NCBI RefSeq assembly: GCF_046119375.1
Contig: NW_027362764.1
Location: 293,074,001 to 293,138,000, forward strand
Reading direction: 5' to 3'
DNA length: 64,000 bases
DNA from: Phyllobates terribilis
Taxonomy: Eukaryota
Shown here: in pieces, positions 4,053 to 63,930 of the stretch
How positions within the stretch are numbered: the stretch's first letter is position 1
How the letters are laid out: every line of letters begins with the position of its first letter
Program-made: the position numbers and the translations under genes
The notes under the pieces: generated by a model
The model's database searches: none
The model's input: only the letters and a program-made list of their open reading frames with translations
Told to the model about the DNA's origin: nothing

Positions 4053-4140
4053 AGGATCTATTAGAACGTTAAGTAGCGCTGTCTGTTGAATGAGCTGCGT
4101 GATTTTGGGCAGCGTGCATACCGCATGTCCTCTTCCCTTT

Positions 4141-4179
4141 TCCCCTGATGAATAGCTAAGGCTAAGAAACGCGTCGGGA
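4141..4179 (+). ncRNA. Minimal type I hammerhead ribozyme
   Basis: TCCC-CTGATGA-aTAGCtaagGCTAa-GAAAC-GC-GTC-GGGA: intact core, stem I TCCC/GGGA, stem II TAGC/GCTA, palindromic ACGCGT stem III. Predicted cut after C4175. Confidence 0.87.
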
Positions 4180-16968: not shown

Positions 16969-17759
16969 CATAATTACAGAATTACATAGTTTTGAAGTTG
17001 CGTTATTCATGTATTTGCGTTAATTTGACATTTTTGAGAAGTATTTTCCTACATAAATGTTTCGTATTTGAATTCAGAATTACATAGTTTTGAAGTTGCG
17101 TTATTCTTGTATTTGCGGTAATTTGTCATTTTTGAGAAGTATTTTCCTACATAAATGTTTTCTATTTGCATTTTCCTATTTGCATTCAGAATTACATAGT
17201 TTTGAAGTTGTGTTATTCTTGTATTTGCGGTAATTTGTCATTTTTGAGAAGTATTTTCCTACATAAATGTGTTCTATTTGCATTTTCCTATTTGCATTTG
17301 TTCATTTGCATTTGCATTTTGAAGAATAAAAATATTTCTAACGATTAAGGCCTTCATCAGAGTGGGAAATTGCGTTTAGTTAACTTTTACCACCATCATC
17401 TGCTGGTAAGAGTCAGAATTCTGTGACTCAAAGTTACTTTTACCAACACATGCTGGTAGTTACTTTTACCAACACATGCTGGTAAATGTAAACATTTACC
17501 AATTCGCCCAGGTAAAAGTCCAAAATCGTTCGTTTATATGGAATACATCTGACTTTTACCAACGCTGTTGAGAAATGTTAAGATTTACCAAGACTTCACC
17601 GGTAAAAGTCCAATTTTACTTTTCATTTTGAGCTTTTACCGACTGCCTCGGTAAATGTCCAGATTGACCGGTAAATCCTAGGTTTTACCGGCCTTCTGAC
17701 TTTTACAGTAACAATTACATTAATATTAATTGTATAACTTAATATTGAGCAGACATCCC

Positions 17760-18925
17760 CCTATATACAGCTTGAGCCCCCCACACAGCCTCTCTATATA
17801 CAGCATGAGCCCCACACAGCCCCCCTATGTCCAGCATGAGCCCCACACAACCCTCCCGTGTCCAGCATGAGGCCCACAAAGCCTCTCCGTGTCCAGCATG
17901 AGCCCCACAAAGCCTCTCCATGTCCAGCATGAGCCCCACACAGCCCCCCCATGTCCAGCATGAGCCCCACACAGCCCACATGTCCAGCAGGAGCCCCACA
18001 CAGCCCCCCTCCATTTCCAGCATGAGCCCCACAGAGCCCCCCATGTCCAGCATAAGCCCCACACAGCCCCCCCATGTCCAGCATGAGCCACACACATCCC
18101 CCCCATGTCCAGCATGAGCCCCACACAGCCCCCCATGACCATCATGAGCCCCACACAGCCCCCCATGTCCAGAATGAGCCCCACAAAGCCCCCCCCCATG
18201 TCCAGGATGAGCCCCACACAGCCACCCTATGTACAGCATGAGCCCCACACAGCCCTCCAAGTCCAGCATGAGCCTCACACAGCCCCCCATGTCCAGCAAG
18301 AGCCCCACACAGCCCCCCCGTGATCAGCATGAGCCCCACACAGCCCTCCCGTGTCCAGCATGAGCCCCACACAGCCACCCATGTCCAGCATGAGCCCCAC
18401 ACAGCCCTCCCGTGTCCAGCATGAGCACCACCCACCACCCCATGTCCATTATGAGAGCCCGAGAGCCTCCCCAGTGTCCAGCAAGAGAGCCCTCCCCAGT
18501 GTCCGGCATGACAGCCCTCCCCAGTGTCCAGCATGACTGCCCTCCTCAGTGTCCAGCATGACAGCCCTCCCCAGTGTCCAGCATGACAGCCCTCCCCAGT
18601 GTCCAGCATGACAGCCCTCCAGTGTCCAGCATTAAACCCCCAGTGTCCAACATGAGATCTCCCCCTGTGTCCAGAATGAGAGCTCCCCCTGTGTCCAGCA
18701 TGAGAGCTCCCCTGTGTCCAGCATGACAGCACTCCCTGTGTCCAGCATGAGAATCCCCCTATGTACAGCATGAGAGCCCCCATGTGTCCAGCATGAGAGT
18801 CCCCCTCTGTGTTCAGCATGAGAGCCCCCCTGTGTCCAGCATGACAGGCCTCCCTGTGTCCAGCATGAGAGCCCCCGTGTCCAGCATTAAAGCCCCCCCT
18901 GTGTCCAGCATTAAAGCCCCCCCGT
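17760..18925. repeat. C-rich minisatellite (TGTCCAGCATGAGCCCCACACAGCCCCCCCA-type, ~22-31 bp units), copy 1
   Basis: Dozens of degenerate units whose consensus drifts along the array; accounts for the many low-complexity ORFs here. Confidence 0.95.
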
Positions 18926-18927
18926 GT

Positions 18928-20945
18928 CCGTATCCGTATCCGTACAGCCCGTTATCCGCTCGGATAACGGGTCTGGACGGATCTATCCGCTTATCCCTAG
19001 TCATAATTACAGAATTACATAGTTTTGAAGTTGCGTTATTCATGTATTTGCGTTAATTTGACATTTTTGAGAAGTATTTTCCTACATAAATGTTTCGTAT
19101 TTGAATTCAGAATTACATAGTTTTGAAGTTGCGTTATTCTTGTATTTGCGGTAATTTGTCATTTTTGAGAAGTATTTTCCTACATAAATGTGTTCTATTT
19201 GCATTTTCCTATTTGTATTTGTTCATTTGCATTTGCATTTTGAAGAATAAAAATATTTCTAACGATTAAGGCCTTCATCAGAGGCGGAAATTGCGTTTAG
19301 TTAACTTTTACCACCATCATCTGCTGGTAAGAGTCAGAATTCTGTGACTCAAAGTTACTTTTACCAACACATGCTGGTAGTTACTTTTACCAACACATGC
19401 TGGTAAATGTAAACATTTACCAATTCGCCCAGGTAAAAGTCCAAAATCGTTCGTTTATATGGAATACATCTGACTTTTACCAACGCTGTTGAGAAATGTT
19501 AAGATTTACCAAGACTTCACCGGTAAAAGTCCAATTTTACTTTTCATTTTGAGCTTTTACCGATTGCCTCGGTAAATGTCCAGATTGACCGGTAAATCCT
19601 AGGTTTTACCGGCCTTCTGACTTTTACAGTAACAATTACATTAATATTAAATGTATAACTTAATATTGAGCAGACATCCCCCTATATACAGCTTGAGCCC
19701 CCCACACAGCCTCTCTATACACAGCATGAGCCCCACACAGCCCCCCTATGTCCAGCATGAGCCCCACACAACCCTCCCGTGTCCAGCATGAGGCCCACAA
19801 AGCCTCTCCGTGTCCAGCATGAGCCCCACAAAGCCTCTCCATGTCCAGCATGAGCCCCACACAGCCCCCCCATGTCCAGCATGAGCCCCACACAGCCCAC
19901 ATGTCCAGCAGGAGCCCCACACAGCCCCCCTCCATTTCCAGCATGAGTCCCACAGAGCCCCCCATGTCCAGCATAAGCCCCACACAGCCCCCCCATGTCC
20001 AGCATGAGCCACACACATCCCCCCCATGTCCAGCATGAGCCCCACACAGCCCCCCATGACCATCATGAGCCCCACGCAGCCCCCCATGTCCAGAATGAGC
20101 CCCACAAAGCCCCCCCATGTCCAGGATGAGCCCCACACAGTCACCCTATGTACAGCATGAGCCCCACACAGCCCTCCAAGTCCAGCATGAGCCTCACACA
20201 GCCCCCCATGTCCAGCAAGAGCCCCACACAGCCCCCCCGTGATCAGCATGAGCCCCACACAGCCCTCCCGTGTCCAGCATGAGCCCCACACAGCCACCCA
20301 TGTCCAGCATGAGCCCCACACAGCCCTCCCGTGTCCAGCATGAGCACCACCCACCCCCCCATGTCCATTATGAGAGCCCGAGAGCCTCCCCAGTGTCCAG
20401 CAAGAGAGCCCTCCCCAGTGTCCGGCATGACAGCCCTCCCCAGTATCCAGCATGACTGCCCTCCTCAGTGTCCAGCATGACAGCCCTCCCCAGTGTCCAG
20501 CATGACAGCCCTCCCCAGTGTCCAGCATGACAGCCCTCCAGTGTCCAGCATTAAACCCCCAGTGTCCAACATGAGATCTCCCCCTGTGTCCAGAATGAGA
20601 GCTCCCCCTGTGTCCAGCATGAGAGCTCCCCTGTGTCCAGCATGACAGCACTCCCTGTGTCCAGCATGAGAATCCCCCTATGTACAGCATGAGAGCCCCC
20701 ATGTGTCCAGCATGAGAGTCCCCCTCTGTGTTCAGCATGAGAGCCCCCCTGTGTCCAGCATGACAGGCCTCCCTGTGTCCAGCATGAGAGCCCCCCCTAT
20801 GTCCAGCATGAGAGCCCCCTGTGTCCAACATGAGAGAGCCCCCTGTGTCCAGCATGAGAGCCCACCTGTGTCCAGCATTAAAGCCCCCGTGTCCAGCATT
20901 AAAGCCCCCCCTGTGTCCAGCATTAAAGCCCCCCCTTGTCCAGCA
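18928..20945. repeat. Tandem duplicate of ~16898-18927 (Ginger right end plus minisatellite)
   Basis: The sequence restarts at TCCGTATCCGTACAGCCC. A second right TIR with ATTA ends at 19634-19638. It has one fewer ~112-bp subrepeat and several substitutions. Confidence 0.92.
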
Positions 20946-21020
20946 TGAGAGCCCCCCTGTGTCCAGCATGAGAGACCCCCCCTGTGTCCAGCATGAGAGC
21001 CCCCCCCACTGTGTCCAGCA
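19680..21020. repeat. C-rich minisatellite, copy 2
   Basis: Same unit succession as 17760-18925, extended by several units. Confidence 0.95.
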
Positions 21021-30998: not shown

Positions 30999-32616
30999 CA
31001 GTGCCTTGTGAAAGTATTTGGCCCCCTTGAACTTTTCTACCTTTTGCCACATTTCTGGCTTCAAACATAAAGATATAAAATTCTAATTTTTTGGGGAAGA
31101 ATCAACAACAAGTGGGAAACAATCGTAAAATGGAACGAAATTTATTGGATATTTTAAACTTTTTTAAAAAAATTAAAAACTGAAAAGTGAGACGTGCAAT
31201 ATTATTCGGCCCCTTTACTTTCACTCCAGAAGTTCAGTGAGGATCTCTGAATGATCCAATGTTGTCCTAAATGACTGGTAATGATAAATGGAATCCACCT
31301 GTGTGTAATCAAGTCTCCGTGTAAATGCACCTGCTCTGTGATAGTCTCAGGGTTCTGTTTCAAGTGCAGAGAGCATCATGAAGACCAAGGAACACACCAG
31401 GCAGGTCCGAGATACTGTTGTGGCGAAGTTTAAAGCCGGATTTGGATACAAAAAGATTTCCCAAGCTTTAAACATCTCAAGGAGCACTCTGCAAGCGATC
31501 ATATTGAAATGGAAGGAGTATCAGACCACTGCAAATCTACCAAGACCCGGCTGTCCCTCTAAACTTTCATCTCGAACAAGGAGAAGACTGATCAGAGATG
31601 CAGCCAAAAGGCTCATGATCACCCTGGATGAACTGCAGAGATCTACAGCTGAGGTGGGAGAGTCTGTCCATAGGACAACAATCAGTCGTACACTGCACAA
31701 ATCTGGCCTTTATGGAAGAGTGGCAAGAAGAAAGCCATTTTTCAAAGATATCCATGAAAAGTCTCGTTTGAAGTTTGCCACAAGCCACCTGGGAGACACA
31801 CCAAACATGTGGAATAAGGTGCTCTGGTCAGATGAAACCAAAATCAACTTTTTAGCCACAATTCAAAACGATATGTTTGGCATAAATGCAACACAGTTCA
31901 TCACCCTCAAAATACCATCCCCACTGTCAAACATGGTGGTGGCAGCATCATGGTTTGGGCCTGCTTTTCTTCAGCAGAGACAGGGAAGATGGTTAAAATT
32001 GATGGGATGATAGACGGAGTCAAATACAGGACCATTCCGGAAGAAAACCTGTTGGAGTCTGCAAAAGACCTGAGACTGGGACGGAGATTTATCTTCCAAC
32101 AAGACAATGATGCCAAACATAAAGCAAAATCTACAATGGAATGGTTCAAAAATAAATGTATCCAGGTGTTAGAATGGCCAAGTCAAAGTCCAGACCTGAA
32201 TCCAATTGAGAATCTGTGGAAAGAGCTGAAAACTGCTGTTCACAAACGCCCTCCATCCAACCTCACTGAGCTCGAGCTGTTTTGCAAGTAAGAATGGGCA
32301 AGAATTTCAGCCTCTCGATGTGCAAAACTGATAGAGACATACCCCAAGCGACTTGCAGCTGTAATCGCAGCAAAAGGTGGTGCTACAAAGTATTAACTTA
32401 AGGGGGCTGAATAATATTGCACACCCCACTTTTCAGTTTTTAATTTTTTTTAAAAGTTTAAAATATCCAATAAATTTCGTTCCACTTCACGATTGTGTCC
32501 CACTTGTTGTTGATTCTTCCCCCCAAAAATAGAATTTTATATCTTTATGTTTGAAGCCAGAAATGTGGCAAAAGGTAGAAAAGTTCAAGGGGGCCAAATA
32601 CTTTCACAAGGCACTG
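30999..32616 (+). mobile_element. Tc1 transposon (Tc1-B) with a disrupted transposase (31378-~32396)
   Basis: Long TIRs CAGTGCCTTGTGAAAGTATTTGGCCCCCTTGAAC, TA flanks. [31 protein letters not shown]; has a frameshift and a TAA. Confidence 0.95.
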
Positions 32617-36228: not shown

Positions 36229-37286
36229 TGTAGTGCCGGCGTCCCTGCCCTCTGCTAGGCAGGGACGCTGTTCCCCTCACCGCTCTGCTCCGTGCCCGGC
36301 GTCCCTCTCCCGCTCTGCTGGCAGCGCGCGCTCCTTCCCGGCCACTGTGCTTAGGGCGCGCGCGCGCGCCCTCCCTCCCTCTTAAAGGGGCCGCGCGCGC
36401 CGTCCTAAGGAGTCCCCGGCCAATGGCCGGAGGACTTTACCATATATAAGGCACCTCCTCCAAAATGGAGGTGCCCGAGCAATGTTGTTGCACCGTTCTA
36501 CTCTGCTTCAGCCCTCAGGTCCCGTTGCCAGTTACCTGCCAGATTCCTGCCAGCTTGCTGTCCTAATCCTGCCTGATTTCCTGTTACCTGCCTGCCTGCC
36601 TGAGGTCCGACGGTCTGCCTTACAACTCCGGTCAGTCTGTCTATGGACCAGCTTGCCCGCTCACCTGGGAGCGCTTCTCCGCTACCTGCCTGCTTGCCTG
36701 CCCGGAGGCTCCGCTGTCACGTGCTGTGACCACCAGCTATTCCAGACTCTTGCCCGCTCACCTGGGAGCGCTTCTCCGCTACCTGCCTGCTTGCCTGCCC
36801 GGGGGTTCCGCTGTCACGTGCTGGGACCACCAGCTATTCCAGAGACTCTTGCTCGCTCACCTGGGAGCGCTTCTCCGCTACCTGCCTGCTTGCCTACCTG
36901 GAGGCTCCGCCGTCACGTGCTGTGACCACCTGCTATTCCAGAGACTCTCGCTTGCTCACCTGGGAGCACACATCCTCCATCTGCCTTGCTAGCCTACCTG
37001 GAGGTTCAGCCATCACAGGTCGTACCTACCCTTTACCTAGAGACTGCCCCGGTCACTTGCCGTGACCTCCAGCCCGTTCTTCCAGAGACTGCCCCGGTCA
37101 CTTGCCGTGACCTCCAGCCCGTTCTTCCAGAGACTGCCCTGATCACTTGCCGTGACCTCCTGCCCGTACACCCAGAGACTGTCCCGGTCACCTGCTGTGA
37201 CTGCCTGCCTGGTCGCCACCCGCTCCCTTACAAGGACCGCTCCCTTGTATAGTAGCCCAGAGGTTCCGCCTCCCAGACCCGTTACA
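36229..37286 (+). repeat. 5' LTR of Gypsy-2
   Basis: TGTAGT...TTACA. TATATAA at 36443. Internal 97-99 bp and ~39 bp tandem units. Confidence 0.96.
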
Positions 37287-37299
37287 GTTTGCTCGGGCC

Positions 37300-38250
37300 A
37301 TGGAACCCGGTGGCACCCAAGCTCCCTCGCTCTCGGACCTGTGTCATGAACTGTCCCGTCAAAGGTCCCAACAGGAGTCCATCCTGGGTCACCTGCGGAA
37401 TGTCAATACTCGCCTGGACACTCTGACTGTTCCACCAACAACCTCCGCCAGTGCCATGTCTCGCAATCCGGCAGCTCCGCTGTCCAATAACACCATGATA
37501 TCCTACCCCGGACCTCGGCTTTCTGCACCTCCTCGCTTCGGAGGCGACTCAGCCCAGGCTCGGGGCTTCATAAATCAGTGCACCCTGCACTTTGAACTAA
37601 TGTCCCACCAGTTTAACTCCGACCGAGCCAAAATTGCATTCATCATGTCCCATCTCACCGGGGAGGCCCTGGCCTGGCTAAATCCTCTATGGGAGAGAGG
37701 AGACCCCCTGGTGTCCAACTTGCCTGCTTTTCTCACGGCTTTCCAGAAAGTCTTCGACGAACCCGGACGGAAGACCTCATCCGCATCATCGTTGCTACGC
37801 CTCCGTCAGGAAAGTCTCACCGTGGGCCAATATGCCATACGGTTCCGTACCCTTGCCTCGGAGCTGGCCTGGGATAACGACGCTCTGGTTTCCGTCTTCT
37901 GGGAGGGTCTGTCCGGCCGTATTAAAGATGAACTTGCCGGTCGGGACATTCCTACCACTCTCGATGACTTAATAACTCTTGCCACCCGGATTGACCTACG
38001 GTTCCAGGAGCGTGCCAGAGAGGTCACCCGTGAGAGGAGGTTACCACGTCTAGCTCCTACTTTTCAGAAACCCGTCACTCCTTCTGTCTCTAACCATGTA
38101 CACCCTCCTGAGCCTATGCAGGTCGACCAGACCAAGATGGTCAAGACCCGTCAGGACTTACGCCGTGCCGAGGGGACCTGCTTCTACTGTGGCAGTAAGG
38201 AGCACCGGATCCGTGCCTGCCCGGAGAGGTCGGGAAACGCCTGTGTCTAG
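37300..38250 (+). CDS. gag: Gag (PEG10/RTL-like capsid plus CCHC knuckle)
   Basis: PPRFGG, FINQC, WLNPLWE, FWEGLS, EPMQVD, CFYCGSKEHRIRAC. Confidence 0.95.
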   Translation: MEPGGTQAPSLSDLCHELSRQRSQQESILGHLRNVNTRLDTLTVPPTTSASAMSRNPAAPLSNNTMISYPGPRLSAPPRFGGDSAQARGFINQCTLHFELMSHQFNSDRAKIAFIMSHLTGEALAWLNPLWERGDPLVSNLPAFLTAFQKVFDEPGRKTSSASSLLRLRQESLTVGQYAIRFRTLASELAWDNDALVSVFWEGLSGRIKDELAGRDIPTTLDDLITLATRIDLRFQERAREVTRERRLPRLAPTFQKPVTPSVSNHVHPPEPMQVDQTKMVKTRQDLRRAEGTCFYCGSKEHRIRACPERSGNACV

Positions 38251-38277
38251 GTTCGCTCAGAGAGGTCCACCTAGACA
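38232..38277 (+). promoter_or_regulatory. -1 programmed ribosomal frameshift signal
   Basis: G GGA AAC in the gag frame (38232-38238), 5-nt spacer, 8-bp stem TGTCTAGG/CCTAGACA. The -1 frame is open into the protease. Confidence 0.88.
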
Positions 38278-41200
38278 AGAATAAATCCTCTCCATCCCTG
38301 CTGTTGTCAGTTTCAATCGTCTACGGGGAGAACCGTTATTTCGAACTAGCCCAACTGGACTCTGGAGCAGCCGGGAATCTTATTTCACAGTCCCTGGTAG
38401 AGAAATACCGCATCCCCACCAAACCTCTGGCTGTACCCTTGTCTGTTGCTGCCGTGGATGGGGGGCTCTTACCACGCCCCATCCAACTCATCACCGAATC
38501 CATTACTCTGCAGGTGGGAATGCTGCATTCTGAAAGTATCTCCTTCCATGTTCTGCCTGGACTCTCTCACGCCCTCTTGCTAGGCCTACCTTGGCTCCAG
38601 AAACATGCACCCGTTCTTGACTGGCAGACCGGAGAAGTCCTTCGCTGGGGACAGGGCTGCCATAAGACCTGTCTGGTTCCCGTTCATCCCGTCCGTCCTT
38701 CTCCTACCCCAGCTAATCTACCTGGACTTCCGATTCCTTATTGGTCTTATGCTGATATCTTTAATAAAAAGGAGGCAGAGACACTACCCCCTCATAGACC
38801 ATACGACTGCCCTATCGACCTGTTACCTGGTACTTCTCCTCCCCGTGGGCGTATTTATCCATTATCCGCTGCTGAGACCCGGTCGATGTCCGAATATATT
38901 GAGGAGAGTCTGGCCAGGGGATTCATCCGGAACCTACCTCCCCGGCGGGAGCAGGCTTCTTTTTCGTCAAAAAGAAGGACGGCTCTCTCCGTCCCTGTAT
39001 AGACTATAGAGGCCTTAACCAGATCACGGTGAAGAATAAGTACCCCCTTCCGCTCATTCCGGAGTTATTTGATCGTCTGAGGGGGGCTAGAATCTTCACC
39101 AAACTGGACCTCCGTGGGGCGTACAACCTGGTTCGTATCCGTCAGGGGGATGAATGGAAGACGGCATTCAACACCCGGGACGGCCACTATTAATATCTGG
39201 TAATGCCCTTTGGCCTCTGTAACGCTCCTGCCGTCTTTCAAGAGTTGGTCAATGACATCTTCCGGGACCTTCTCTACTCCTGCGTAGTGGTGTACCTGGA
39301 CGACATCTTGGTCTTCTCTCCGGATCTCCAGACTCACCGGAGGGATGTTCGTCAGGTCCTGCTCAGGCTCAGGCAGAACCATCTCTACGCTAAATGTGAG
39401 AAGTGCCTCTTTGAGCAGACCTCGCTTCCGTTTCTGGGCTACATTATCTCTCAGACCGGCCTACAAATGGATCCTGAGAAACTGTCTGCCATCGAGAAAT
39501 GGCCCCGACCAGAGGGGTTGAAGGCTATTCAACGGTTCCTGGGCTTCGCCAACTATTACCGCCTCTTCATCCCGCACTTCTCTTCCCGGACTGCCCCAAT
39601 TTCCGCGCTCACCCGTAAGGGTACTAATCCCAAAGAGTGGCCGCCCGAAGCAGAGGAGGCCTTTCTTTCCCTAAAACAGGCCTTCTCTTCCGCCCCGGTG
39701 CTGCATCGCCCGGACGGCAACAAGCAGTTCTTCCTGGAAGTTGACGCCTCCTCCTCTGGAGCCGGAGCGGTACTTACTCAAAAATCATCTTCCGGGAGAA
39801 TGGTAACTTGTGGCTTCTTCTCCAAACTCTTCTCCTCTTCTGAGCGCAACTATTCCATAGGAGACCGAGAGTTATTGGCCATCAAGCTGGCGTTGGAGGA
39901 GTGGCGTTACCTACTCGAGGGGTCTCTTCATCCGGTAATAATTTACACTGACCACAAGAACTTGGCTTACCTCCAGCATGCCCAGAGACTTAACCCGCGC
40001 CAAGCCCGGTGGTCCTTGTTTTTTGCTCGCTTTGATTTTGTTCTTCATTTTCGCCCGGCTGACAAAAACGTCAAAGCAGACGCCTTGTCCCGATCATTTC
40101 TGGTGTCCGATCTCGAGGAAGAACCTAAACATATCATCGATCCCGCCAGAGTAATGCAGGTGGCTCCCGTGAGTCTAAATCGTCTCCCTCCCGGTAAGAC
40201 GTTTGTTTCAGTACCTGATCGGGAGAAGATCCTACACTGGGGCCATTCGTCTAAACTAGCTGGCCACGTCGGTCAGAAAAAGACCCTCCAGCTTATTGCC
40301 CGGCACTGTTGGTGGCCTACCCTGCACAAGGACATAATAGACTTTGTTTCTGCCTGTGTGTCCTGCGCCCGCAACAAAGTCCCGAGACATCTGCCAGCCG
40401 GACGCCTCCTTCCGCTTCCTGTACCTGCTGCCCCCTGGCAGCATATAGCAATGGACTTTATAACTGATCTCCCCGTCTCTGCCGGTTGTACGGTCATTTG
40501 GGTGGTCGCTGACCGCTTTTCCAAGATGGCTCACTTTATTCCCCTGCCAGGCCTTCCGTCTGCACCCGAGCTGGCTAAAGACTTTATCCGCCACATCTTC
40601 CGTCTTCATGGCTTGCCCCTCCACATCGTGTCGGATCGTGGGGTACAGTTCACCTCACGTTTCTGGAGAGCCACTTGTAAACTACTAGACGTCACCCTGG
40701 ACTTCTCTTCCGCTTACCACCCACAGTCCAATGGTCAAGTGGAGCGGATCAATCAGAACCTGACCAGTTACCTCCGGCACTTCGTTAATGCCCACCATTC
40801 TGACTGGGTGGATCTCCTACCATGGGCCGAGTTCTCTTATAATAATCACGAGAGCGAATCCTCCTCCAAATCCCCGTTTTTTGTAGTCTTTGGTCAGCAT
40901 CCTCGGATTCCTTTTCCTGTCTCCACCTCTGTGGACAACCCGGCTGCGGAATCTCTCGTTAGCAAATTTTCCTCCATATGGGAGAGTACCCGGTCCGCAC
41001 TCCTTCTGTCATCCGAGCGTATGAAAAGACACGCTGACAAAAAACGCCTGGATCCTCCACAATTTCGTCCAGGAGATAAAGTCTGGCTCTCATCTAAATA
41101 TGTTCGACTCAAGATACCGTCTTACAAGTTAGGGCCTCGGTTCATCGGTCCTCTGGAGGTCATCAGTCAGATCAACCCGGTGGCCTATAAATTGAAACTC

Positions 41201-41656
41201 CCGGCCAACTTACGGATCCCTAACTCCTTCCATGTATCTCTCCTCAAACCCGTGGTGCTTAACTCTTTTTCCAAGTCTACAGGTACGCTTCCTGCTCCGG
41301 TTTCTGCTGAGGACGAGTTTGAGGTAGAGAACATTCTTGCCACCAAAAGGGTAAGAGGAAAGACCTTTTTTCTGGTAGATTGGAAGGGGTTTGGTCCTGA
41401 GGAGAGAACGTGGGAGCCCCGGGAGAACATCCATGCCCCTCTCATCCTAGCTAAATTTCTATCTGGCCTAAAAAAGGGGGGGCCTAAAGTGGGGGGTACT
41501 GTAGTGCCGGCGTCCCTGCCCTCTGCTAGGCAGGGACGCTGTTCCCCTCACCACTCTGCTCCGTGCCCGGCGTCCCTCTCCCGCTCTGCTGGCAGCGCGC
41601 GCTCCTTCCCGGCCACTGTGCTTAGGGCGCGTGCGCGCGCCCTCCCTCCCTCTTAA
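38238..41656 (+). pseudogene. pol: pol (protease, RT, RNase H, integrase, chromodomain) with two lesions
   Basis: LDSGA, YLDD, VSDRGVQF, NGQVER, FLVDWKGFGPEERTW. A 1-bp deletion near 38932 and TAA at 39191-39193 replacing E in GHYEYLVMP. Confidence 0.93.
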
Positions 41657-42557
41657 AGGGGCCGCGCGCGCCGTCCTAAGGAGTCCCCGGCCAATGGCCG
41701 GAGGACTTTACCATATATAAGGCACCTCCTCCAAAATGGAGGTGCCCGAGCAATGTTGTTGCACCGTTCTACTCTGCTTCAGCCCTCAGGTCCCGTTGCC
41801 AGTTACCTGCCAGATTCCTGCCAGCTTGCTGTCCTAATCCTGCCTGATTTCCTGTTACCTGCCTGCCTGCCTGAGGTCCGACGGTCTGCCTTACAACTCC
41901 GGTCAGTCTGTCTATGGACCAGCTTGCCCGCTCACCTGGGAGCGCTTCTCCGCTACCTGCCTGCTTGCCTGCCCGGAGGCTCCGCTGTCACGTGCTGTGA
42001 CCACCAGCTATTCCAGACTCTTGCCCGCTCACCTGGGAGCGCTTCTACGCTACCTGCCTGCTTGCCTGCCCGGGGGTTCCGCTGTCACGTGCTGGGACCA
42101 CCAGCTATTCCAGAGACTCTTGCCCGCTCACCTGGGAGCGCTTCTCCGCTACCTGCCTGCTTGCCTACCTGGAGGCTCCGCCGTCACGTGCTGTGACCAC
42201 CTGCTATTCCAGAGACTCTCGCTTGCTCACCTGGGAGCACACATCCTCCATCTGCCTTGCTAGCCTACCTGGAGGTTCAGCCATCACAGGTCGTACCTAC
42301 CCTTTACCTAGAGACTGCCCCGGTCACTTGCCGTGACCTCCAGCCCGTTCTTCCAGAGACTGCCCCGGTCACTTGCCGTGACCTCCAGCCCGTTCTTCCA
42401 GAGACTGCCCTGATCACTTGCCGTGACCTCCTGCCCGTACACCCAGAGACTGTCCCGGTCACCTGCTGTGACTGCCTGCCTGGTCGCCACCCGCTCCCTT
42501 ACAAGGACCGCTCCCTTGTATAGTAGCCCAGAGGTTCCGCCTCCCAGACCCGTTACA
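41500..42557 (+). repeat. 3' LTR of Gypsy-2
   Basis: Near-identical to 36229-37286. Confidence 0.96.
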
Positions 42558-43579
42558 GGAAGTATATCGCAATAATCAGAAAATAGGAGGAATGATCCAG
42601 CGTATCAGGCTATGAACTTGAATAAAACATAGCTTTTATTGAGCCATTAAAAAATGCTGCTACCACCATAATAAGTCTTAGTGCACACAAGGATCACAGC
42701 TGTCTTGACCTACTCGTTTCAACGTGCAGTCTTAATCATGGTCCATGATAAAGACTGCACGTCCAAACGCGTAGGTCAAGATAGCTGTGATCCTTGTGTG
42801 CACTAAGACTTATTATGGTAATAGCAGCATTTTTTAATGGCTGTAACATCCCTGGCGGCGTGCTGGCATGGCTTACCACCTCCCACCATGCAAGACCGCC
42901 ATCTTACCTATCAGTCCAGGCTGCACACTTTGCTCCAGTACCTGCTGTGTGCATGTCTCTTGTCTGATTGCTTAGGGCGGCGGCGCGGTTACTGCCTGAT
43001 TCTTATAGTTACTGTGTGCGCACTCCTAATGCGTCCCCAGCCTATTGCTGTGAGTCACTGGATACTTAAACTCCCTCCACCCAGTAGGAGGTGCCTGGGG
43101 AACACTTTCTTTCAGTGTGTTCTGTGCAACTGAGTTGCCAGGTCCTATCCTGTATCTTGTCTGTTTCCGCCACCCTGGGGGCTGAATACCCAGGCCTGTT
43201 ACCTGTATCTGTAACTTCTAGTCTGCTCCGCCACCATGGGGGCTGTATACCCAGGCCCGTTATCTGTATCTTTGACTTCTAGTCTGTTCTGCCACCCTGG
43301 GGGCTGTATACCCAGGCCTGTTACCTGTATCTGTGACTTCTAGTCTGTTTCCGCCACCCTGGGGGCTGAGTTCCCAGGCTCGTTCCTATATTTTGTTTCT
43401 GGTTCAGTTCCTGTCTGAACTGTGTCCTAGCCTGTTACCTGTTTTGTCTCTATGTCCGAACCTTCCCTTTTCCTGCAGTGTCTGAACCTGCACCTAACTC
43501 CTACTCGTTGTCTCTGTACTTTTGTTTGTGAGTTTTGCGTCCACTTGCTATTTCATTGCAAGTACCTTGTGTGTAGCTG

Positions 43580-44100
43580 GTTCTGTTTGTCCACCGCACC
43601 TGCGGTTTCGCTTTGCTCTGCATGTCCACCGCATCTGCGGTTTCGCTCTGCTCTGCTTGTCCACCGCACCTGCGGTTTCGCTCTGCTCTGCTTGTCCACC
43701 GCACCTGCGGTTTCGCTCTGCTCTGCTTGTCCACCCCACCTGCGGTTTTGCTCCGCTCTGCTTGTCCACCGCACCTGCGGTTTCGCTCCGCTCTGCTTGT
43801 CCACCGCACCTGCGGTTTCGCTCTGCTCTGCTTGTCCACCGCACCTGCGGTTTCGCTCTGCTCTGCTTGTCCACCGCACCTGCGGTTTCACTCTGCTCTG
43901 CTTGTCCATCGCACCTGCGGTTTTGATTTGCTCTGCTTGCCCACCGCACCTGCGGTTTTGCTCTGCTCTGCTTGCCCACAGCACCTGTGGTTTCGCTCTG
44001 CACTGCTTGTCCACCGCACCTACGGTTTCGCTCTGCTCTGCTCCGCTTGTCCTCCGCGCCTGTGGTTCTGCTCTGCTAGTCCACCGCACCCGCGGCTCTG
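43580..44100. repeat. 35-bp minisatellite in the Gypsy-3 5' LTR
   Basis: Unit CCACCGCACCTGCGGTTTCGCTCTGCTCTGCTTGT; the equivalent array is at ~47165-47650 in the 3' LTR. Confidence 0.93.
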
Positions 44101-44538
44101 TACCTGTATCCCAGTCTGTACTGGTCCCTATCCAGCCTGTGTTCCTACCTGCCAGTATCTGCCAGTGTGCATACTAGCCGTGCCTGCCAGCACCCGTCTG
44201 TCTGCATACCAGCTGTGCCTGCCAGTACCCACCTGTCTGCATGCCAGCCGTGCCTGCCAGTACCCACCTGTCTGCATACCAGCTGTGCCTGCCCATTCCT
44301 GCATTCCCCGGTGTGGGTCAACAGCTGTGACCGAGGTCTGACCTGTAGTAGCACCTGGTCCCTCTGCTCGGTTCCTCCCTGGTTCACGGAGTCGACTGAG
44401 ACGCCGTGCGACCTTGGTCGGACCGAGTTGATACTTAGTCACGCCCCTCCAGGCACTCCTCGGTTCATGGTCCAGTGGGATCACTAACCACGCTCACGCC
44501 AGTCAGTCTGGGCGTGTGCGTAACAGTTTGCTCAGGCC

Positions 44539-46614
44539 ATGGTCCCCTTTGAGCCCCACGGCCCTTTGCTCTCGGAGACATTTGAATCCTTGTCTGGCGA
44601 ATACGTGCACCAAGGAAAAAAATTTTCTCAAGCTGAAGTCCAGGCGATTTACGCACCAGCCCAAATGGAACTATCAGCACTCGTTCCTTCGGATCCACCA
44701 CGGTACTATGGGGATCCAAAACAAAGTCGTGCATTTGTGGAGCAATGCATGCTGCATTACAAATTCTATGCTCACTATTTTCCCACCGATCGGGTTAAAG
44801 TAGCATTTCTGATGTCCTACTTAGCGGGTGATGCCTTGAATTGGATCACCCCCCTATGGGAAGCATGGGATCCTATCGTCTCTGACCTGCAGGCCTTCCT
44901 GGTGGCCTTTCTAATGGTCTTCGATGACCCTAACCCTGAAGCTTCTGCTAAAGCTTCCCTTCCCAATGTCGTGGAGCAGTTCCGATGGGTGATGCGTGTA
45001 GGTAGCCCACCAGTTCCCCAGCCAGAAGAGGCTGCTGCCAACACAGCATCCACACAGGATGACAATGCTCCACAGAATACTTCCCTTCCCAGCCTCAAGA
45101 GGCAGTCCAGACGTGCAAGGCGTAGAGGTAAACCGTCACGTCAGGTTCTGTCCTCCCAAAGACCTCCTGTTCCCCAGCCTGTAGAGGCAGCTATCCGCAC
45201 AGAATCCATGAAGGTTGACCATGTTCGTCAGGCAAAGCAGAGGCCGGAACTCAGTCACAAAATCGGATTGCGGTCCCGCTGCAGTTGTTTGGACCACCCT
45301 GACGGTCTTTGTCCTGTGAAGGTTGAAGAATCCCAAGACATTAGGCCTGTAGGAGAGGCTGCCCTTGGCGTTAGTGTTTCCTCCCCACAGATGACCATGA
45401 CTGTCTCCATGGCAAGTGAAGGCCTCGGATTAACCGGAAGTTTCGGGCTTAAAGCCTTGAAGAGTCGGTGTCTGATTCCCGTCCGAGAACTCCAGAATCC
45501 GGTTTGGGCATTGTCAGCGGAAGGACGAGCCCTACTCAGAAACAGTCAGAATATGTCTGTACAAATTAAGCTCCAGATTGGAGCATTACACATGAAGAAG
45601 TTCACATTCCAGGTGCTGTCTGGTTTACCCAAAGGTCGTCCAGAGCCGAGAGATCTAGTGCCCGCTCAGGTCTGGAGATCCTGCATGGTGATTCCTGGGG
45701 GACTGCTGAGGTACAAGGGTTGTCCAGTCCCCATATCTTCAGGACAGTCAGCAGTGTCTTCTTCTTCTTCTTCACCAGATCAGCTAGTCGCTGACTCGCT
45801 GGGCGCTGAAGTCTCCGAAGGAAGGGAAGCGGAGGCAATGTCCCCACACAATCTCGACGATTGTACCAATGATCTGACTTCAGGTACTGCCCCGCCTCGC
45901 AGACGTGTCATCTCTGAAACCAGACTGAAGTTGGTCCCAAAGCAAGGATACTCCATCCCTAATAAATCTGGCAATAAGTCCATCAAGGCGGTGGCTTCCT
46001 CCAAGTCTCTGCACCCCTCCAACCAGGTGGAGGACCTCCAGTTGTCTCCTGAATCCTCCGGGGTGCTACCTGATAACAAAGGGAGAGAGACTTTTCTACA
46101 CCCTGTACCTAATACTTCACCCACTTCTTCCAGTAAGCTTGGCAAAGTGTACGTCAAGGCGGTGGTTCCCCCCGAGTCTCTGCACCCCTCCAACCTGGTG
46201 GAGGATCTCCAGTTGTCCCGTGAATCTTCTGGGGTGCTACCCAATATTAATAAATGGAGAGAGACTTTCCTGTGTCCTGTTCCTGGTACTTCACCCACTT
46301 CATCTGTTGCTGAGGATGGCTCGATGGGAGAAAGCATCCTAGTCACCAAGATGATGAGACCGGATTCGTTCCCTCTAGTGGACAGAAGAGGTAATCTTCT
46401 TGAAGAGAAGGATCGGCCTCCAAATTCTCTGCAGAAAATCCTTGCAGGCTTGAAGAAGAGCAGGCGTAAGGGGGGGGTACTGGAACATCCCTGGAGGCGT
46501 GCTGGCATGGCTTACCACCTCCCACCATGCAAGACCGCCATCTTACCTATCAGTCCAGGCTGCACACTTTGCTCCAGTACCTGCTGTGTGCATGTCTCAT
46601 GTCTGATTGCTTAG
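44539..46614 (+). CDS. 691-aa Gag fused in frame to eroded protease, RT N-tip, duplicated integrase C-terminus and chromodomain relic
   Basis: PPRYYGDP..SRAFVEQC, FLMSYLAGDALNWITPLWE are gag-like. IKLQIGALH..FTFQVLSGL is protease-like without DSG. PHNLDDCTNDLTSGTAPPRRRV and SILVTK...FPLVD align with Gypsy-2 pol. Confidence 0.8.
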   Translation: MVPFEPHGPLLSETFESLSGEYVHQGKKFSQAEVQAIYAPAQMELSALVPSDPPRYYGDPKQSRAFVEQCMLHYKFYAHYFPTDRVKVAFLMSYLAGDALNWITPLWEAWDPIVSDLQAFLVAFLMVFDDPNPEASAKASLPNVVEQFRWVMRVGSPPVPQPEEAAANTASTQDDNAPQNTSLPSLKRQSRRARRRGKPSRQVLSSQRPPVPQPVEAAIRTESMKVDHVRQAKQRPELSHKIGLRSRCSCLDHPDGLCPVKVEESQDIRPVGEAALGVSVSSPQMTMTVSMASEGLGLTGSFGLKALKSRCLIPVRELQNPVWALSAEGRALLRNSQNMSVQIKLQIGALHMKKFTFQVLSGLPKGRPEPRDLVPAQVWRSCMVIPGGLLRYKGCPVPISSGQSAVSSSSSSPDQLVADSLGAEVSEGREAEAMSPHNLDDCTNDLTSGTAPPRRRVISETRLKLVPKQGYSIPNKSGNKSIKAVASSKSLHPSNQVEDLQLSPESSGVLPDNKGRETFLHPVPNTSPTSSSKLGKVYVKAVVPPESLHPSNLVEDLQLSRESSGVLPNINKWRETFLCPVPGTSPTSSVAEDGSMGESILVTKMMRPDSFPLVDRRGNLLEEKDRPPNSLQKILAGLKKSRRKGGVLEHPWRRAGMAYHLPPCKTAILPISPGCTLCSSTCCVHVSCLIA

Positions 46615-47164
46615 GGCGGCGGCGCGGTTACTGCCTGATTCTTATAGTTACTGTGTGCGCACTCCTAATGCGTCCCCAGCCTATTGCTGTGAGTCACTGG
46701 ATACTTAAACCCCCTCCACCCAGTAGGAGGTGCCTGAGCAACACTTTCTTTCAGTGTGTTCTGTGCAACTGAGTTGCCAGGTCCTATCCTGTATCTTGTC
46801 TGTTTCCGCCACCCTGGGGGCTGAATACCCAGGCCTGTTACCTGTATCTGTGACTTCTAGTCTGCTCCGCCACCCTGGGGGCTGTATACCCAGGCCTGTT
46901 ACCTGTATCTGTGACTTCTAGTCTGTTTCCGCCACCCTGGGGGCTGAGTTCCCAGGCTCGTTCCTGTATCTTGTTCCTGGTTCAGTTCCTGTTTGAACTG
47001 TGTCCTAGCCTGTTACCTGTTTTGTCTCTATGTCCGAACCTTCCCTTTTCCTGCAGTGTCTGAACCTGCACCTAACTCCTACTCGTTGTCTCTGTACTTC
47101 TGTTTGTGAGTTTTGTGTCCACTCGCTACTTCATTGCAAGTACCTTGTTTGTATCTGGTTCTGC

Positions 47165-47650
47165 TTGTCCACCGCACCTGCGGTTTCGCTCTGCTCTGCT
47201 TGTCCACCGCACCTGTGGTTTCACTCTGCTCGTCCACCGCACCTGCGGTTTCTCTCTGCTCTGCTTGTCTACCGCACCTGCGGTTTCGCTCTGCTTGTTC
47301 ACTGCACCTGCGGTTTCACTCTGCTCTGCTTGTCCACCGCACCTGCAGTTTCGCTCTGCTCTGCTTGTTCACCGCACCTGCGGTTTGGCTCTGCTCTGCT
47401 TGTCCACCTCACCTGCGGTTTCGCTCTGCTCTGCTTGTCCACCACACCTGCAGTTTTGCTCTGCTTGTCCACCGCACCTGCGGTTTCGCTCCGCTCTGCT
47501 TGTCCACTGCACCTGCGGTTTCGCTCTGCTCTGCTTGCCCACCGCACCTGCAGTTTCGCTCTGCTCTTCTTGTCCACCGCACCTACGGTTTCGCTCTGTT
47601 CTGCTCCACTTGTCCTCCGCGCCTGCGGTTCTGCTCTGCTAGTCCACCGC
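47165..47650. repeat. 35-bp minisatellite in the Gypsy-3 3' LTR
   Basis: Same unit with different copy number and unit variants. Confidence 0.93.
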
Positions 47651-48504
47651 ACCCGAGGCTCTGTACCTGTATCCCAGTCTGTACTGGTCCCTATCCAGCC
47701 TGCGTTCCTACCTGCCAGTATCTGCCAGTCTGCATACTAGCCGTGCCTGCCAGTAGCCGCTTGCCTGCATACCAGCCGTGCTTGCCAGTACCCACCTGTC
47801 TGCATACCAGCTGTGCCTGCCCATTCCTGCATTCTCCAGTGTGGGTCAACAGCTGTCACCGGGGTCTGACCTGTAGTAGCACCTGGTCCCTCTGCTCGGT
47901 TCCTCCCTGGTTCACGGAGTCGACTGAGCCGCCGTGCGACCTTGGTCGGACCGAGTTGATACTTAGTCACGCCCCTCCAGGCACTCCTCGGTTCATGGTC
48001 CAGTGGAATCACTAACCACGCTCACGCCAGTCAGTCCGGGCGTGTGCGTAACAATGGCTCAATAAAAGGTATGTTTTATTCAAGTTTATAGCCTGATACG
48101 GTGGATCATTCCTCCTATTTTCTGATTCATGAACCAGCCTGCTCTCGCTGGATCCGAGCGAGGCTGAGACTGCACACCCCAATAGTGAGCGGACTTTACT
48201 TACCTTTTTTTCTTATATCGCAATAATGGTACATACTGTATATAGCAAAGTCTCATAGGATATGTAGTCTCATAGTAAACAATTAAATAAATAAATATAA
48301 GTGCTAAATGCAATGTGAACCATAATGACATTGACTGGAAAAAATACATCAAAGTATATCTGTGACATAATAAATGCAAGACCTTATATAAATGGGAAGC
48401 TGGCCCATAGAAATGATGAATAGTAGCTAATGGTAAATAGATAAATATGGGACAGAGGGCATAACAACAATTCACAGTGATGGAAAAGTGAAAAAAGTGA
48501 TAAA

Positions 48505-53299: not shown

Positions 53300-53415
53300 G
53301 TATGTTTTTGTCTTAACTATAAATGGTTAAAGATCTGCAATTAGACTTATAATAGCCTTTGTTCTAGTCTTCTCAATATAAGAGGAGGGTGAGGGTAAAG
53401 GTCACTTAAGATATA

Positions 53416-54988
53416 CAGTACAGACCAAAAGTTTGGACACACCTCATTTAAAGATTTTTCTGTATTTTCATGACTATGAAAATTGTACATTCACACTGAA
53501 GGCATCAAAACTATGAATTAACGCATGTGGAATTATATACTTAACAAAAAAGTGTGAAACAACTGAAAATATGTCTTATATTCTAGGTTCTTCAAAGTAG
53601 CCACCTTTTGCTTTGATGACTGCTTTGCACAGTCTTGGCATTCTCTTGATGAGCTTCAAGAGGTAGCCACCGGAAATGGTCTTCCAACAATCTTGAAGGA
53701 GTTCCCAGAGATGCTTAGCACTTGTTGGCCCTTTTGCCTTCACTCTGCGGTCCAGCTCACCCCAAACCATCTCGATTGGGTTCTGGTTTGGTGACTGTGG
53801 AGGCCAGGTCATCTGGCGTAGCACCCCATCACTCTCCTTCTTGGTCAAATAGCCCTTACACAGCCTGGAGGTGTGTTTGGGGTCATTGTCCTGTTGAAAA
53901 ATAAATGATGGTCCAACTAAACGCAAACCGGATGGAATAGCATGTCGCTGCAAGATGCTGTGGTTCAGTATGCCTTCAGTTTTGAATAAATCCCCAACAG
54001 TGTCACCAGCAAAGCACCCCCACACCATCACACCTCTTCCATGCTTCACGGTGAGAACCAGGCTTGTAGAGTCCATCCGTTCACCTTTTTTGCGTCGCAC
54101 AAAGACATGGTGGTTGGAACCAAAGATCTCAAATTTGGACTCATCAGACCAAAGCACGGATTTCCACTGGTCTAATGTCCATTCCTTGTGTTCTTTAGCC
54201 CAAACAAGTCTCTTCTGCGTGTTGCCTGTCCTTAGCAGTGGTTTCCTAGCAGCTATTTTACCATAAAGGCCTGCTGCACAAAGTCTCCTCTTAACAGTTG
54301 TTGTAGAGATGTTTCTGCTGCTAGAACTCTGTGTGGCATTGACCTGGTCTCTAATCTGTGCTGCTGTTAACCTGCGATTTCTGAGGCTGGTGACTCGGAT
54401 AAACTTATCCTCAGAAGCAAAGATGACTCTTGGTCTTCCTTTCCTGGAGCGGTCCTCATGTGAGCCAGTTTCTTTGTAGCGCTTGATAGTTTTTGCAACT
54501 GTACTTGGGGACACTTTCAAAGTTTGCCCAATTTTTCGGACTGACTCGTTTTTCTTTACTTAGCTGCTTTTTTCTTGCCATAATGCAAATTCTAACAGTC
54601 TATTCAGTAGGACTATCAGCTGTGTATCCACCTGACTTCTGCACAACACAACTGATGGTCCCAACTCCATTTATAAGGCATGAAATCCCACTTATTAAAC
54701 CTGACAGGGCACACCTGTGAAGTGAAAACCATTTCTGGTGACTACCTCTTGAAGCTCATCAAGAGAATGCCAAGAGTGTGCAAAGCAGTCATCAAAGCAA
54801 AAGGTGGCTACTTTGAAGAATATAAGACATATTTTCAGTTGTTTCACACTTTTTTGTTAAGTATATAATTCCACATGTGTTAATTCATAGTTTTGATGCC
54901 TTCAGTGTGAATGTACAATTTTCAAAGTCATGAAAATACAGAAAAATCTTTAAATGAGAAGGTGTGTCCAAACTTTTGGTCTGTACTA
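53416..54988 (-). mobile_element. Tc1 transposon (Tc1-C); transposase ORF 53576-54520 lacks its N-terminus
   Basis: TIRs CAGTACAGACCAAAAGTTTGGACACACC. WSDESKFEIFG, FQQDNDPKH, WPPQSPNQNPIE. Confidence 0.93.
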
Positions 54989-56019
54989 TAGGTTATAGCT
55001 TTGTTAGCAAGAAATATCAAAAAGCTGCCAACAAATATTTCACGTATGTGGAGATCATAATGTAAGCATTTTAGGAATGCTGTCCATTTATGACTTTCTT
55101 ATAAACATAAAGATCTTTATCTCAAAGCTAGGGGTTTCCAGGCTTCACAGAAAATATATGCTGCTACATATACTTGCCCAAATATTCTTAAAGGGGTTTT
55201 ATACTTTTAGGCCCTTATTCATCAAAGCAGTTTCACCAGAATTCTCGTCAGCCACTCCTGATTCATGAAGAAGCGTGTGTCTGACTCCACCACGCCCCCT
55301 CATCAAGGCCAACGTTTTTTTGATGAATCAGGTCCTTAGACCTAGGGGTGGATTAAGAGTAGCCAGGGCCCCTGGCAGTTTAGAAGGCGTGGCCCCTCCC
55401 CGCTGACAGAAATAGCGGTGAGCGTATCGCGGCGCCCACATTTTTCCCTTATGTACAGAACTATATATAACATAGCGCCATACATAATATTATTTGTATC
55501 ACTTAATATTGAGCAGAATTAATATATTGACATACCCTATATACAGTACGAGCCCCCACATAGCCCCCTCAATCAACAACCAAAACAATCAGCCTACACG
55601 TAAACCATTTAAAAAAAAACTAAAAAAAATTCTCTTTATTTGAAAAACTCAATTCATAAAGGCATTAGTGATGAGCAAACGTGCTCAGATAACTTGTTAT
55701 CCCTGCACGCTCGTATCTTGTAGTGCTTGGATAATATATTCGAGTCCCTGCGGCTGCATGTTATGTTTTTGTCTGTTAGACAACCACAACACTTAACAAA
55801 CAGGCAATCCCCGCATGTGTTGCATCTGTCTAACAGCAGATACAACACTATATATATAGACCCTATAGGGCCTGAACAGTTGTGTACTTAGCTTAATGGC
55901 GTCTTCTTCTGATGCTTTTTCTCCTCCTTTGGTCATTCAGGGATCCATCAGGGAATTCCTTCAATCAGGACAAGAAAAGGAGACTATAAGCCGAACGGCA
56001 ATGAGAATAACAGCTCACA

Positions 56020-61029: not shown

Positions 61030-63930
<2,901 letters not shown>

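What the first reader, a model, noticed from the sequence alone, without database searches (positions are those of the whole stretch)
44539..46614. Non-autonomous LTR element keeping a 691-codon Gag-pol-relic fusion open
Seen: the ORF is collinear with Gypsy-2 gag-pol, but the frameshift is hard-wired, the Zn knuckle and protease DSG are lost, RT/RNase H/integrase core are deleted, a ~50-aa segment is duplicated and the chromodomain aromatics are eroded. It has no stops, while LTRs, PPT and TSD are intact. Inference: translation is under selection (Gag-supplying parasite, analogous to plant TR-GAG elements, or a dominant-negative or RTL-like proto-gene).
Basis: partly seen in the sequence, partly recalled or inferred. 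Interest (0 to 1): 0.7.

Follow-up and report, generated by a model that had tools for sequence, protein, structure and literature searches.

The report
Half-capsid parasitic LTR retrotransposon family
This is one decaying copy of a jumping-gene family with about two thousand copies that has lost its copying enzymes, yet whose jumping ancestors kept one long reading frame open and conserved half of a capsid protein, likely to hitch a ride in the particles of a related complete element.

Summary
The 691-codon ORF and its Gag-Pol-relic anatomy are real. It lies in a non-autonomous, self-priming (Tf1/Sushi-type) Gypsy LTR element, one of about 2,000 copies or more in a 10.6-Gb genome. This copy is not itself under selection: most copies are broken (3 of 40 and 4 of 37 open, about what chance gives), its private changes are neutral, and its last 45 codons are read-through into the 3' LTR. 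The transposing lineage did keep the frame. No stop is shared between old and young subfamilies (6-22 in the other five frames), and subfamily indels are in frame. Amino-acid constraint is detected only on the capsid N-lobe (dN/dS about 0.3-0.55); the C-lobe is deleted, so the element cannot supply whole Gag. It shares PBS, PPT and a U5 segment with a complete helper family. The same architecture occurs in poison-frog proteins. Best reading: a cis-acting half-capsid adaptor that gets its own RNA into helper particles (inferred, untested). It is a new variant of Gag-only parasites (TR-GAG, Xenopus 1A11, zebrafish Bik), with an RTL8/LDOC1-like half capsid. The scan noted a gag-only element in another genome, not this DNA.

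The parts
42837..42841 (+). left target-site duplication (5 bp)
   Evidence: identical to 48054-48058
42842..44525 (+). 5' LTR, with 61-bp repeats and a 35-bp tandem array (43583-44112)
43093..43102 (+). self-primer site after the TATA-like box, degraded in this LTR
44526..44537 (+). self-priming PBS, complementary to the LTR site at 46732-46741 and identical to the PBS of helper-type gag-pol elements
44539..46614 (+). single ORF, 691 codons in this copy (family ORF about 645 codons, ending at the PPT/LTR border)
44683..44964 (+). capsid N-lobe (aa 49-142; DUF4939), the only part with detected amino-acid constraint; the C-lobe is deleted downstream
45001..45126 (+). 42-codon in-frame insertion of the young subfamilies, carrying a basic patch (aa 185-200); looks like a tandem duplication by eye
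45271..45312 (+). eroded zinc-knuckle relic
45340..45924 (+). protease relic without LDSG, plus pre-RT linker relic, fused in frame to gag; no detectable amino-acid constraint in the protease relic
45958..46305 (+). two 56-57-aa repeat units (1-6 across the family), lying where the integrase C-terminal SH3 region lies in complete elements (homology weak)
46306..46467 (+). chromodomain relic ending in a basic tail
46452..46477 (+). polypurine tract, same as in the helper family
46481..48053 (+). 3' LTR; self-primer 46732-46741; U5 segment 47810-47988 is 74-88% identical to helper LTRs
48054..48058 (+). right target-site duplication
42574..48127 (.). palindromic MITE-like element into which the LTR element inserted (arms 42574-42648 / 48053-48127; inner palindrome 42642-42842)
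   Evidence: I12, I19
36229..42557 (+). neighbouring complete-type Gypsy (broken pol), relative of the helper family (72% Gag identity to L084); separate insertion with its own TSD

Best explanation
This is a neutrally decaying copy of a high-copy non-autonomous Tf1/Sushi-type Gypsy LTR retrotransposon whose transposing masters kept one reading frame open and conserved a capsid N-lobe, and that half-capsid protein likely acts in cis to get its own RNA into particles built by a complete helper family. Shown: LTRs, TSDs and about 2,000 dispersed copies; PBS, PPT and a U5 segment shared with complete gag-pol elements; an open frame and N-lobe constraint in shared (master-lineage) changes; neutral decay after insertion. 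Inferred: the helper supplies capsid C-lobe, protease, RT and integrase. The N-lobe docks into helper capsomer rings by N-lobe:N-lobe contact, as RTL8 does with PEG10. The long, basic, probably disordered remainder holds the RNA it was translated from and/or carries ribosomes to the end of the internal region. A cis benefit is needed because selection that acts only on transposing lineages has to favour the RNA that encodes the protein.
For: Family: 2,100 exact matches to the 21-nt LTR-end+PBS+ATG motif, control 0. In the first 60 fetched, 55 have the non-autonomous start and 5 the helper start. TSDs are exact in 13 of 15 scorable copies. Helper link: identical PBS+ATG, same PPT and a U5 segment at 74-88%, against 66-68% DNA identity in the N-lobe. 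Neutral after insertion: singleton dN/dS 1.00 in 82 young copies. Selection in masters: alleles shared by 4 or more copies give dN/dS 0.62, N-lobe 0.34 (12 N/15 S against 125/40; Fisher p = 0.002). The signal is frame-specific: only the true frame and its antisense mirror show it, and shared stop changes are 0 in the true frame against 5-13 in each other frame at that threshold. Old versus young subfamilies: 0 group-specific stops in frame against 6-22 in the other five frames; 5.1 expected, P = 0.006. In-frame subfamily indels: 126 nt (20 of 28 old copies), 870 nt (4 of 4 deletion-subfamily copies), repeat spacing a multiple of three in 66 of 72. A shared +1 at codon 15 goes with a new in-frame ATG in 22 of 25 copies against 0 of 28 without it. 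Relative rates against 7 outgroup elements: N-lobe identity 38% (helper) v 36% (this ORF), protease 35 v 26, pre-RT 50 v 31. N-lobe model pLDDT 91, best match dArc1 capsid residues 41-130, Z 9.3, rmsd 2.9 over 84. The same deletions and fusion occur in open frames of 290-330 codons in Ranitomeya imitator and Dendrobates tinctorius proteins at about 40% identity. Precedent: RTL8, an N-lobe-only protein, binds the PEG10 N-lobe and enters its particles (PMC11684626, passages seen).
Against: There is no evidence here of transcription, translation or binding. The net old-versus-young N-lobe dN/dS interval nearly reaches 1 (0.55, 0.33-0.97), and its ratio to the neutral baseline includes 1 (0.38-1.18). 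In that contrast the N-lobe signal comes from more synonymous change (net dS 0.58 v 0.23), not from less amino-acid change (0.150 v 0.163). At the strictest sharing threshold p = 0.056. Shared alleles are not independent events, and the new-ATG coupling may be one event; an in-frame ATG at codon 43 is present in nearly all copies anyway. The D. tinctorius protein is only 40% identical (16 of 40) where it overlaps the N-lobe. The 870-nt deletion subfamily transposed without the basic linker patch. In the one tested precedent (RTL8) the half capsid inhibits particles rather than exploiting them.
Confidence: 0.5

Rival explanations
1. The frame is kept open for the RNA's sake. Ribosomes must run to the PPT so that the genomic RNA escapes nonsense-mediated decay or silencing, and the protein is mostly a by-product.
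For: Outside the N-lobe the frame is kept with little or no amino-acid constraint (protease relic shared dN/dS 1.41, net 0.95; non-capsid net 0.86; aa 151-470 not significant). Large in-frame deletions and repeat expansions are tolerated. That premature stops destabilise unspliced retroelement RNA is recalled knowledge, not from a call.
Against: It does not explain why the N-lobe evolves as slowly as in complete elements or the frame-specific N-lobe signal. It may act together with the best explanation.
Confidence: 0.25
2. The half capsid is a dominant-negative modulator of helper particles (RTL8- or Ty1 p22-like) that limits or out-competes the helper, and it is kept by element-level or host-level selection.
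For: RTL8 and an isolated PEG10 N-lobe lower particle yield (PMC11684626). Non-autonomous starts outnumber helper starts 55 to 5.
Against: A trans-acting inhibitor would hurt its own carrier and could be lost by freeloading copies, yet constraint appears in shared, transposed changes and not in inserted copies.
Confidence: 0.12
3. The protein serves the host (like zebrafish Bik Gag or an RTL proto-gene), and a few host-selected open copies seed new insertions.
For: Xenopus 1A11 (71-kDa Gag-like ORF, no pol) is developmentally expressed (PMC4585706). Bik-1/2 Gags are needed for development while still mobile (PMC12067270).
Against: Open copies are no more frequent than chance. The private changes of this copy (13 N/4 S) match the neutral ratio, and those of the other open copies counted are no lower.
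Confidence: 0.08
4. There is no selection: the open frame is a recent accident inherited from a single master.
For: This copy's openness is chance-level, and the confidence intervals of the dN/dS tests are wide.
Against: About 93 net amino-acid differences between old and young masters with no fixed stop, a frame-specific absence of shared stops, and the same open architecture at about 40% identity in poison-frog proteins.
Confidence: 0.05

Closest known systems
TR-GAG elements of plants (Chaparro et al. 2015, PMC4350172; abstract and passages seen; PMC8704663 passages)
   Same: LTRs, PBS, PPT, TSD; one ORF of Gag origin; no RT/RNase H/integrase; multiple dispersed copies
   Different: 5.2 kb rather than under 4 kb; the capsid is only the N-lobe (no Retrotrans_gag hit); the knuckle is eroded; the ORF runs through protease, integrase-tail and chromodomain relics; animal host
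Xenopus laevis 1A11 and Xretpos (described in PMC4585706, passages seen; original papers not read)
   Same: Frog LTR elements without pol; 1A11 encodes a 71-kDa Gag-like protein, close to this family's 70 kDa
   Different: Homology untested (sequence not obtained); 1A11 has 20-30 ORF copies against about 2,000 here; domain make-up of 1A11 not seen
Zebrafish Bhikhari Bik-1/Bik-2 (PMC12067270, passages seen)
   Same: Mobile non-autonomous vertebrate LTR families that encode only a Gag; a minority of copies intact
   Different: Bik encode a full-length Gag, are treated in that paper as endogenous retroviruses and have a shown host role; no host selection is seen here
Mammalian half-capsid genes RTL8 and LDOC1 of the SIRH/RTL family (PMC11011659, PMC10516033, PMC11684626; passages seen)
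   Same: Same metaviral kind; N-lobe conserved, C-lobe lost, flanking parts diverged
   Different: Those are fixed single-locus host genes; this is a transposed family with LTRs whose inserted copies decay neutrally
Tf1/Sushi self-priming chromoviruses (PMC6317226, passages seen)
   Same: PBS complementary to an LTR site just after the TATA-like box; chromodomain relic; helper has gag, pol and chromodomain
   Different: Non-autonomous derivative; RT phylogeny of the helper not built

Membership tests
Non-autonomous LTR retrotransposon | Two LTRs, PBS, PPT, TSD | tested here: met
   TSD exact in 13 of 15 scorable copies
Non-autonomous LTR retrotransposon | No RT, RNase H or integrase core | tested here: met
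Non-autonomous LTR retrotransposon | Dispersed copies and a helper sharing cis signals | tested here: met
Non-autonomous LTR retrotransposon | Mobilisation by the helper shown directly | not testable with these tools
   inferred from shared PBS, PPT and U5
Tf1/Sushi group | Self-priming PBS | tested here: met
   10-nt complement in the LTR of this family and of helpers; motif present upstream or downstream in 46 of 60 loci
Tf1/Sushi group | RT phylogeny within Tf1/Sushi | not tested
   the element has no RT; helper RT tree not built; Gag hits are fish and frog PEG10-like elements
TR-GAG | Single ORF with Gag similarity and no enzyme domains | tested here: met
TR-GAG | Whole Gag precursor (Retrotrans_gag/UBN2 signature) | tested here: not met
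   no Retrotrans_gag hit at E up to 1; C-lobe deleted in the alignment with helper Gag
TR-GAG | Length under 4 kb | tested here: not met
   5,212 bp (42842-48053)
Metaviral capsid N-lobe | Capsid-lobe fold | tested here: met
   pLDDT 91; dArc1 41-130 Z 9.3, Ty3 N-terminal domain Z 7.5; C-lobes score alike (Z 8.4), so the N assignment rests on sequence; no Foldseek match at E up to 0.001
Domesticated RTL/SIRH-like gene | Purifying selection on the inserted copy | tested here: not met
   private N/S 13/4 v neutral 3.2
Domesticated RTL/SIRH-like gene | Orthologous locus kept across species | not testable with these tools
   no related genomes held
1A11/Xretpos | Sequence homology to their ORFs | not tested
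   their sequences were not returned under those names by any search

The most novel reading that the evidence does not exclude
A transposing vertebrate LTR parasite that encodes only a capsid N-lobe on a long tether and uses it as a cis-acting adaptor to load its own RNA into helper capsids. It would be a mobile counterpart of mammalian half-capsid genes (RTL8, LDOC1), showing that the half-capsid form can arise and be kept by selfish selection before any domestication.
Probability: 0.35. Interest if true: 0.75.

Novelty: new variant of a known kind. Interest (0 to 1): 0.5.

Why it matters
Gag-only non-autonomous LTR elements are known, but the usual view is that they supply a whole capsid. 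Here the C-lobe is missing in every subfamily examined and in poison-frog homologues, yet the N-lobe and the frame were kept through roughly 60% protein divergence. If the N-lobe is a cis adaptor, this is a distinct way to parasitise a retrotransposon and suggests a selfish origin for half-capsid genes. The family's many copies make the evolutionary test easy to extend. The single locus that was flagged is ordinary decaying DNA.

Tried and rejected
Whole-ORF word search found nothing, and a search with alignment A4 covered only 30-76-residue proteins and found nothing; neither says anything on absence. Uncorrected dN/dS of about 0.6 among copies was rejected as evidence because CpG and transition bias produce it; the corrected singleton value is 1.00. 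Expression: no RNA holder listed; contigs of 4 of 5 listed runs were laid, RNA status is a guess, so no conclusion. Complex prediction of the N-lobe with helper capsid was not available: no verdict. PDB sequence search gave no real match; Foldseek none at E up to 0.001. A set of near-identical copies with shared stops looked like a subfamily that transposed without an ORF; 14 of 20 loci fetched are one 5'-truncated copy carried in a larger duplicated unit (same 3' flank in the 12 where it could be read), so it is no counter-example. Shared 1-nt indels at codons 26, 60 and 104 sit in homopolymer runs, and those at codons 26, 60, 104, 109 and 441 are scattered over clades; they were read as recurrent slippage or alignment noise. 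Each repeat unit alone does not align significantly to the integrase SH3 region (z about 1 or less); my test of the linker duplication overlapped itself and is void. The LTR hairpin before the self-primer is strong in the neighbour (z -5.0) but not in this element (z -0.4, -0.8).

Full report
Anatomy. The ORF at 44539-46614 (691 codons) lies in an LTR element. It has a 5' LTR at 42842-44525 and a 3' LTR at 46481-48053, with TSD ATGGC, and is inserted in a palindromic MITE-like repeat about 280 bases after a separate complete-type Gypsy. The ORF is collinear with that neighbour's gag-pol: capsid N-lobe, linker, eroded knuckle, protease relic without LDSG fused in frame, pre-RT linker, then a jump to repeats and a chromodomain relic (z about 10.6 against shuffles). 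Pfam sees only DUF4939. Alignment with complete Gags shows that the capsid C-lobe is deleted. The N-lobe folds confidently (pLDDT 91) and matches capsid lobes (dArc1 41-130, Z 9.3); Foldseek gave no match at E up to 0.001. The last 45 codons are in the 3' LTR; 28 of 29 other copies have a stop at codon 649 of this frame, so the family protein is about 645 aa, 70 kDa.

Family. The genome is 10.6 Gb. A 21-nt motif spanning LTR end, PBS and ATG has 2,100 exact matches, control 0. I fetched 60 of the first 62 listed (two skipped: a tandem neighbour and one already held). Of these, 55 begin like this element and 5 like complete gag(-pol) elements. The two kinds share the PBS+ATG, the PPT and a U5 segment at 74-88%, while N-lobe DNA is only 66-68% alike. 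This suggests continued co-packaging or recombination with the helper (inference). The PBS is complementary to a site just after the TATA-like box, the self-priming arrangement reported for Tf1/Sushi elements (PMC6317226, passages). LTR pairs differ by a median 5% in 30 copies and TSDs are exact in 13 of 15 scorable copies. This copy's 3.3% outside the arrays gives roughly 7 million years at the rate used in 10.1101/2023.11.06.565769 (passages); this is a rough figure.

This copy is neutral. Of the 40 closest copies, 3 (the window included) are open over codons 1-643. The mean is 2.36 breaks, P(0) = 0.095. In the unbiased set, 37 of 60 had both ends of the internal region and 4 of 37 are open. 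Raw dN/dS of 0.6 is a mutation-bias effect: without CpG-type changes, singletons give 1.00. The window copy's private changes are 13 N/4 S against 788/246 family-wide.

The masters were not neutral. I used 82 young and 28 old copies. Three duplicate loci were dropped, L141 equals L093, and loci covering under 700 nt of codons 1-470, including the four deletion-subfamily copies, were left out. Alleles shared by 4 or more young copies give dN/dS 0.62: N-lobe 0.34 (p = 0.002), protease relic 1.41. In a six-frame control only the true frame and its antisense mirror show the N-lobe signal (p = 0.007, 0.002, 0.056 at thresholds 3, 4, 6). Shared stop changes are 0 in frame and 5-13 in each other frame at threshold 4, and aa 151-470 is not significant in any frame. 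Old and young masters differ by about 93 net residues over 435 codons with no group-specific stop (5.1 expected, P = 0.006; 6-22 in other frames). Subfamily indels are in frame: 126 nt in 20 of 28 old copies, 870 nt in 4 of 4 deletion-subfamily copies, and repeats of 168/171 nt in 63 of 72 spacings, 1-6 units. The one shared frameshift that follows clades, +1 at codon 15, goes with a new in-frame ATG at about codon 33 in 22 of 25 copies against 0 of 28; this may be a single event. Against this reading: net old-young dN/dS is 0.55 (0.33-0.97) for the N-lobe and 0.86 (0.62-1.26) elsewhere, and the N-lobe ratio to baseline includes 1. The N-lobe value also reflects higher dS rather than lower dN. 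The deeper test agrees with constraint. Against 7 outgroup elements that hold all regions (of 11 computed; three lack a region, and P0002 shows 60/51, 48/33, 62/37), mean identity helper/ORF is 38/36% for the N-lobe, 35/26 for protease and 50/31 for pre-RT.

Other genomes. Proteins annotated in Ranitomeya imitator and Dendrobates tinctorius carry the same C-lobe deletion, gag-protease fusion and loss of LDSG in open frames, at 36-40% identity overall. Identity in the N-lobe part is 70% (35 of 50) for one and 40% (16 of 40) for the other. Their best matches in this genome reach only 39-53%, so they form a deeper branch. Gene models are biased to open frames, which weakens this point.

Mechanism. 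Selection seen in transposed changes but not in inserted copies means the protein, or its translation, benefits the RNA that encodes it (inference). A whole-capsid role is excluded by the missing C-lobe; capsomers are joined by C-lobe contacts (PMC11684626, passage). The same paper shows that an N-lobe-only protein, RTL8, binds the PEG10 N-lobe and enters its particles, where it lowers yield. I therefore favour a cis-acting adaptor (0.5) over pure RNA protection (0.25), inhibitor (0.12), host function (0.08) and accident (0.05). Binding and expression are untested.

Comparison. The element works like TR-GAG, 1A11 and Bik in being a coding parasite without pol, but fails TR-GAG's whole-Gag and length features. 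It resembles RTL8 and LDOC1 in protein form but is not a fixed gene. Eight library searches listed no paper that describes this family or a half-capsid mobile element, judged from listings and abstract starts. The D. tinctorius genome preprint has no occurrence of 'gag' or 'non-autonomous'. The original 1A11, Xretpos and Tf1/Sushi papers, Repbase and Dfam were not seen, no supplements were read, and preprint supplements are closed, so the family may be catalogued there. An earlier scan note on a gag-only element in another genome (e1-7274826) supplied the TR-GAG paper id. Verdict: a real family-level phenomenon, an ordinary locus; new variant of a known kind; interest 0.5.

Noticed in passing
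window 35-4665: Penelope-like RT (1287-2573) and GIY-YIG (2738-3316) ORFs between 997-nt inverted repeats that are 100% complementary; apparently very young.
   Followed up: partly
window 4891-8958: Gypsy element with one uninterrupted 1,355-aa gag-pol ORF and all domains through the chromodomain; a different family from the helper (27% identity over the N-lobe region).
   Followed up: partly
window 14892-16391: 499-aa integrase-only ORF (H2C2 + rve); Ginger/GIN-like by recall, not tested.
   Followed up: no
window 16898-21005: A roughly 1.9-2.0-kb unit of 23-31-bp minisatellites present twice at 98-99% identity.
   Followed up: no
window about 31000-32600, 53400-55000, 61400-63000 and 10900-12500/56100-57750: Several Tc1/mariner-like elements with inverted terminal repeats.
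   Followed up: no
window 36229-42557: Complete-type Gypsy with near-identical LTRs (99%), broken pol, and a strong hairpin just before its self-primer (z -5.0) that is weak in the non-autonomous family.
   Followed up: partly
L201-L216, L220: A 5'-truncated copy of the family with two stops is amplified passively inside a larger duplicated unit, in 14 of 20 loci fetched, many on unplaced contigs, some identical over 1.4 kb.
   Followed up: partly
L101, L105, L132, L133: Deletion subfamily: N-lobe joined in frame directly to an expanded repeat array and the chromodomain relic, i.e. a minimal form of the protein.
   Followed up: partly
P0001, P0006: Ranitomeya imitator gene models fuse this family's ORF to host enzyme exons (decarboxylase, short-chain dehydrogenase); probably annotation artefacts, exonisation not excluded.
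   Followed up: no
L110:1819-3250: A helper-type element with whole-type Gag start but most of pol deleted: an independent, younger internal deletion.
   Followed up: no
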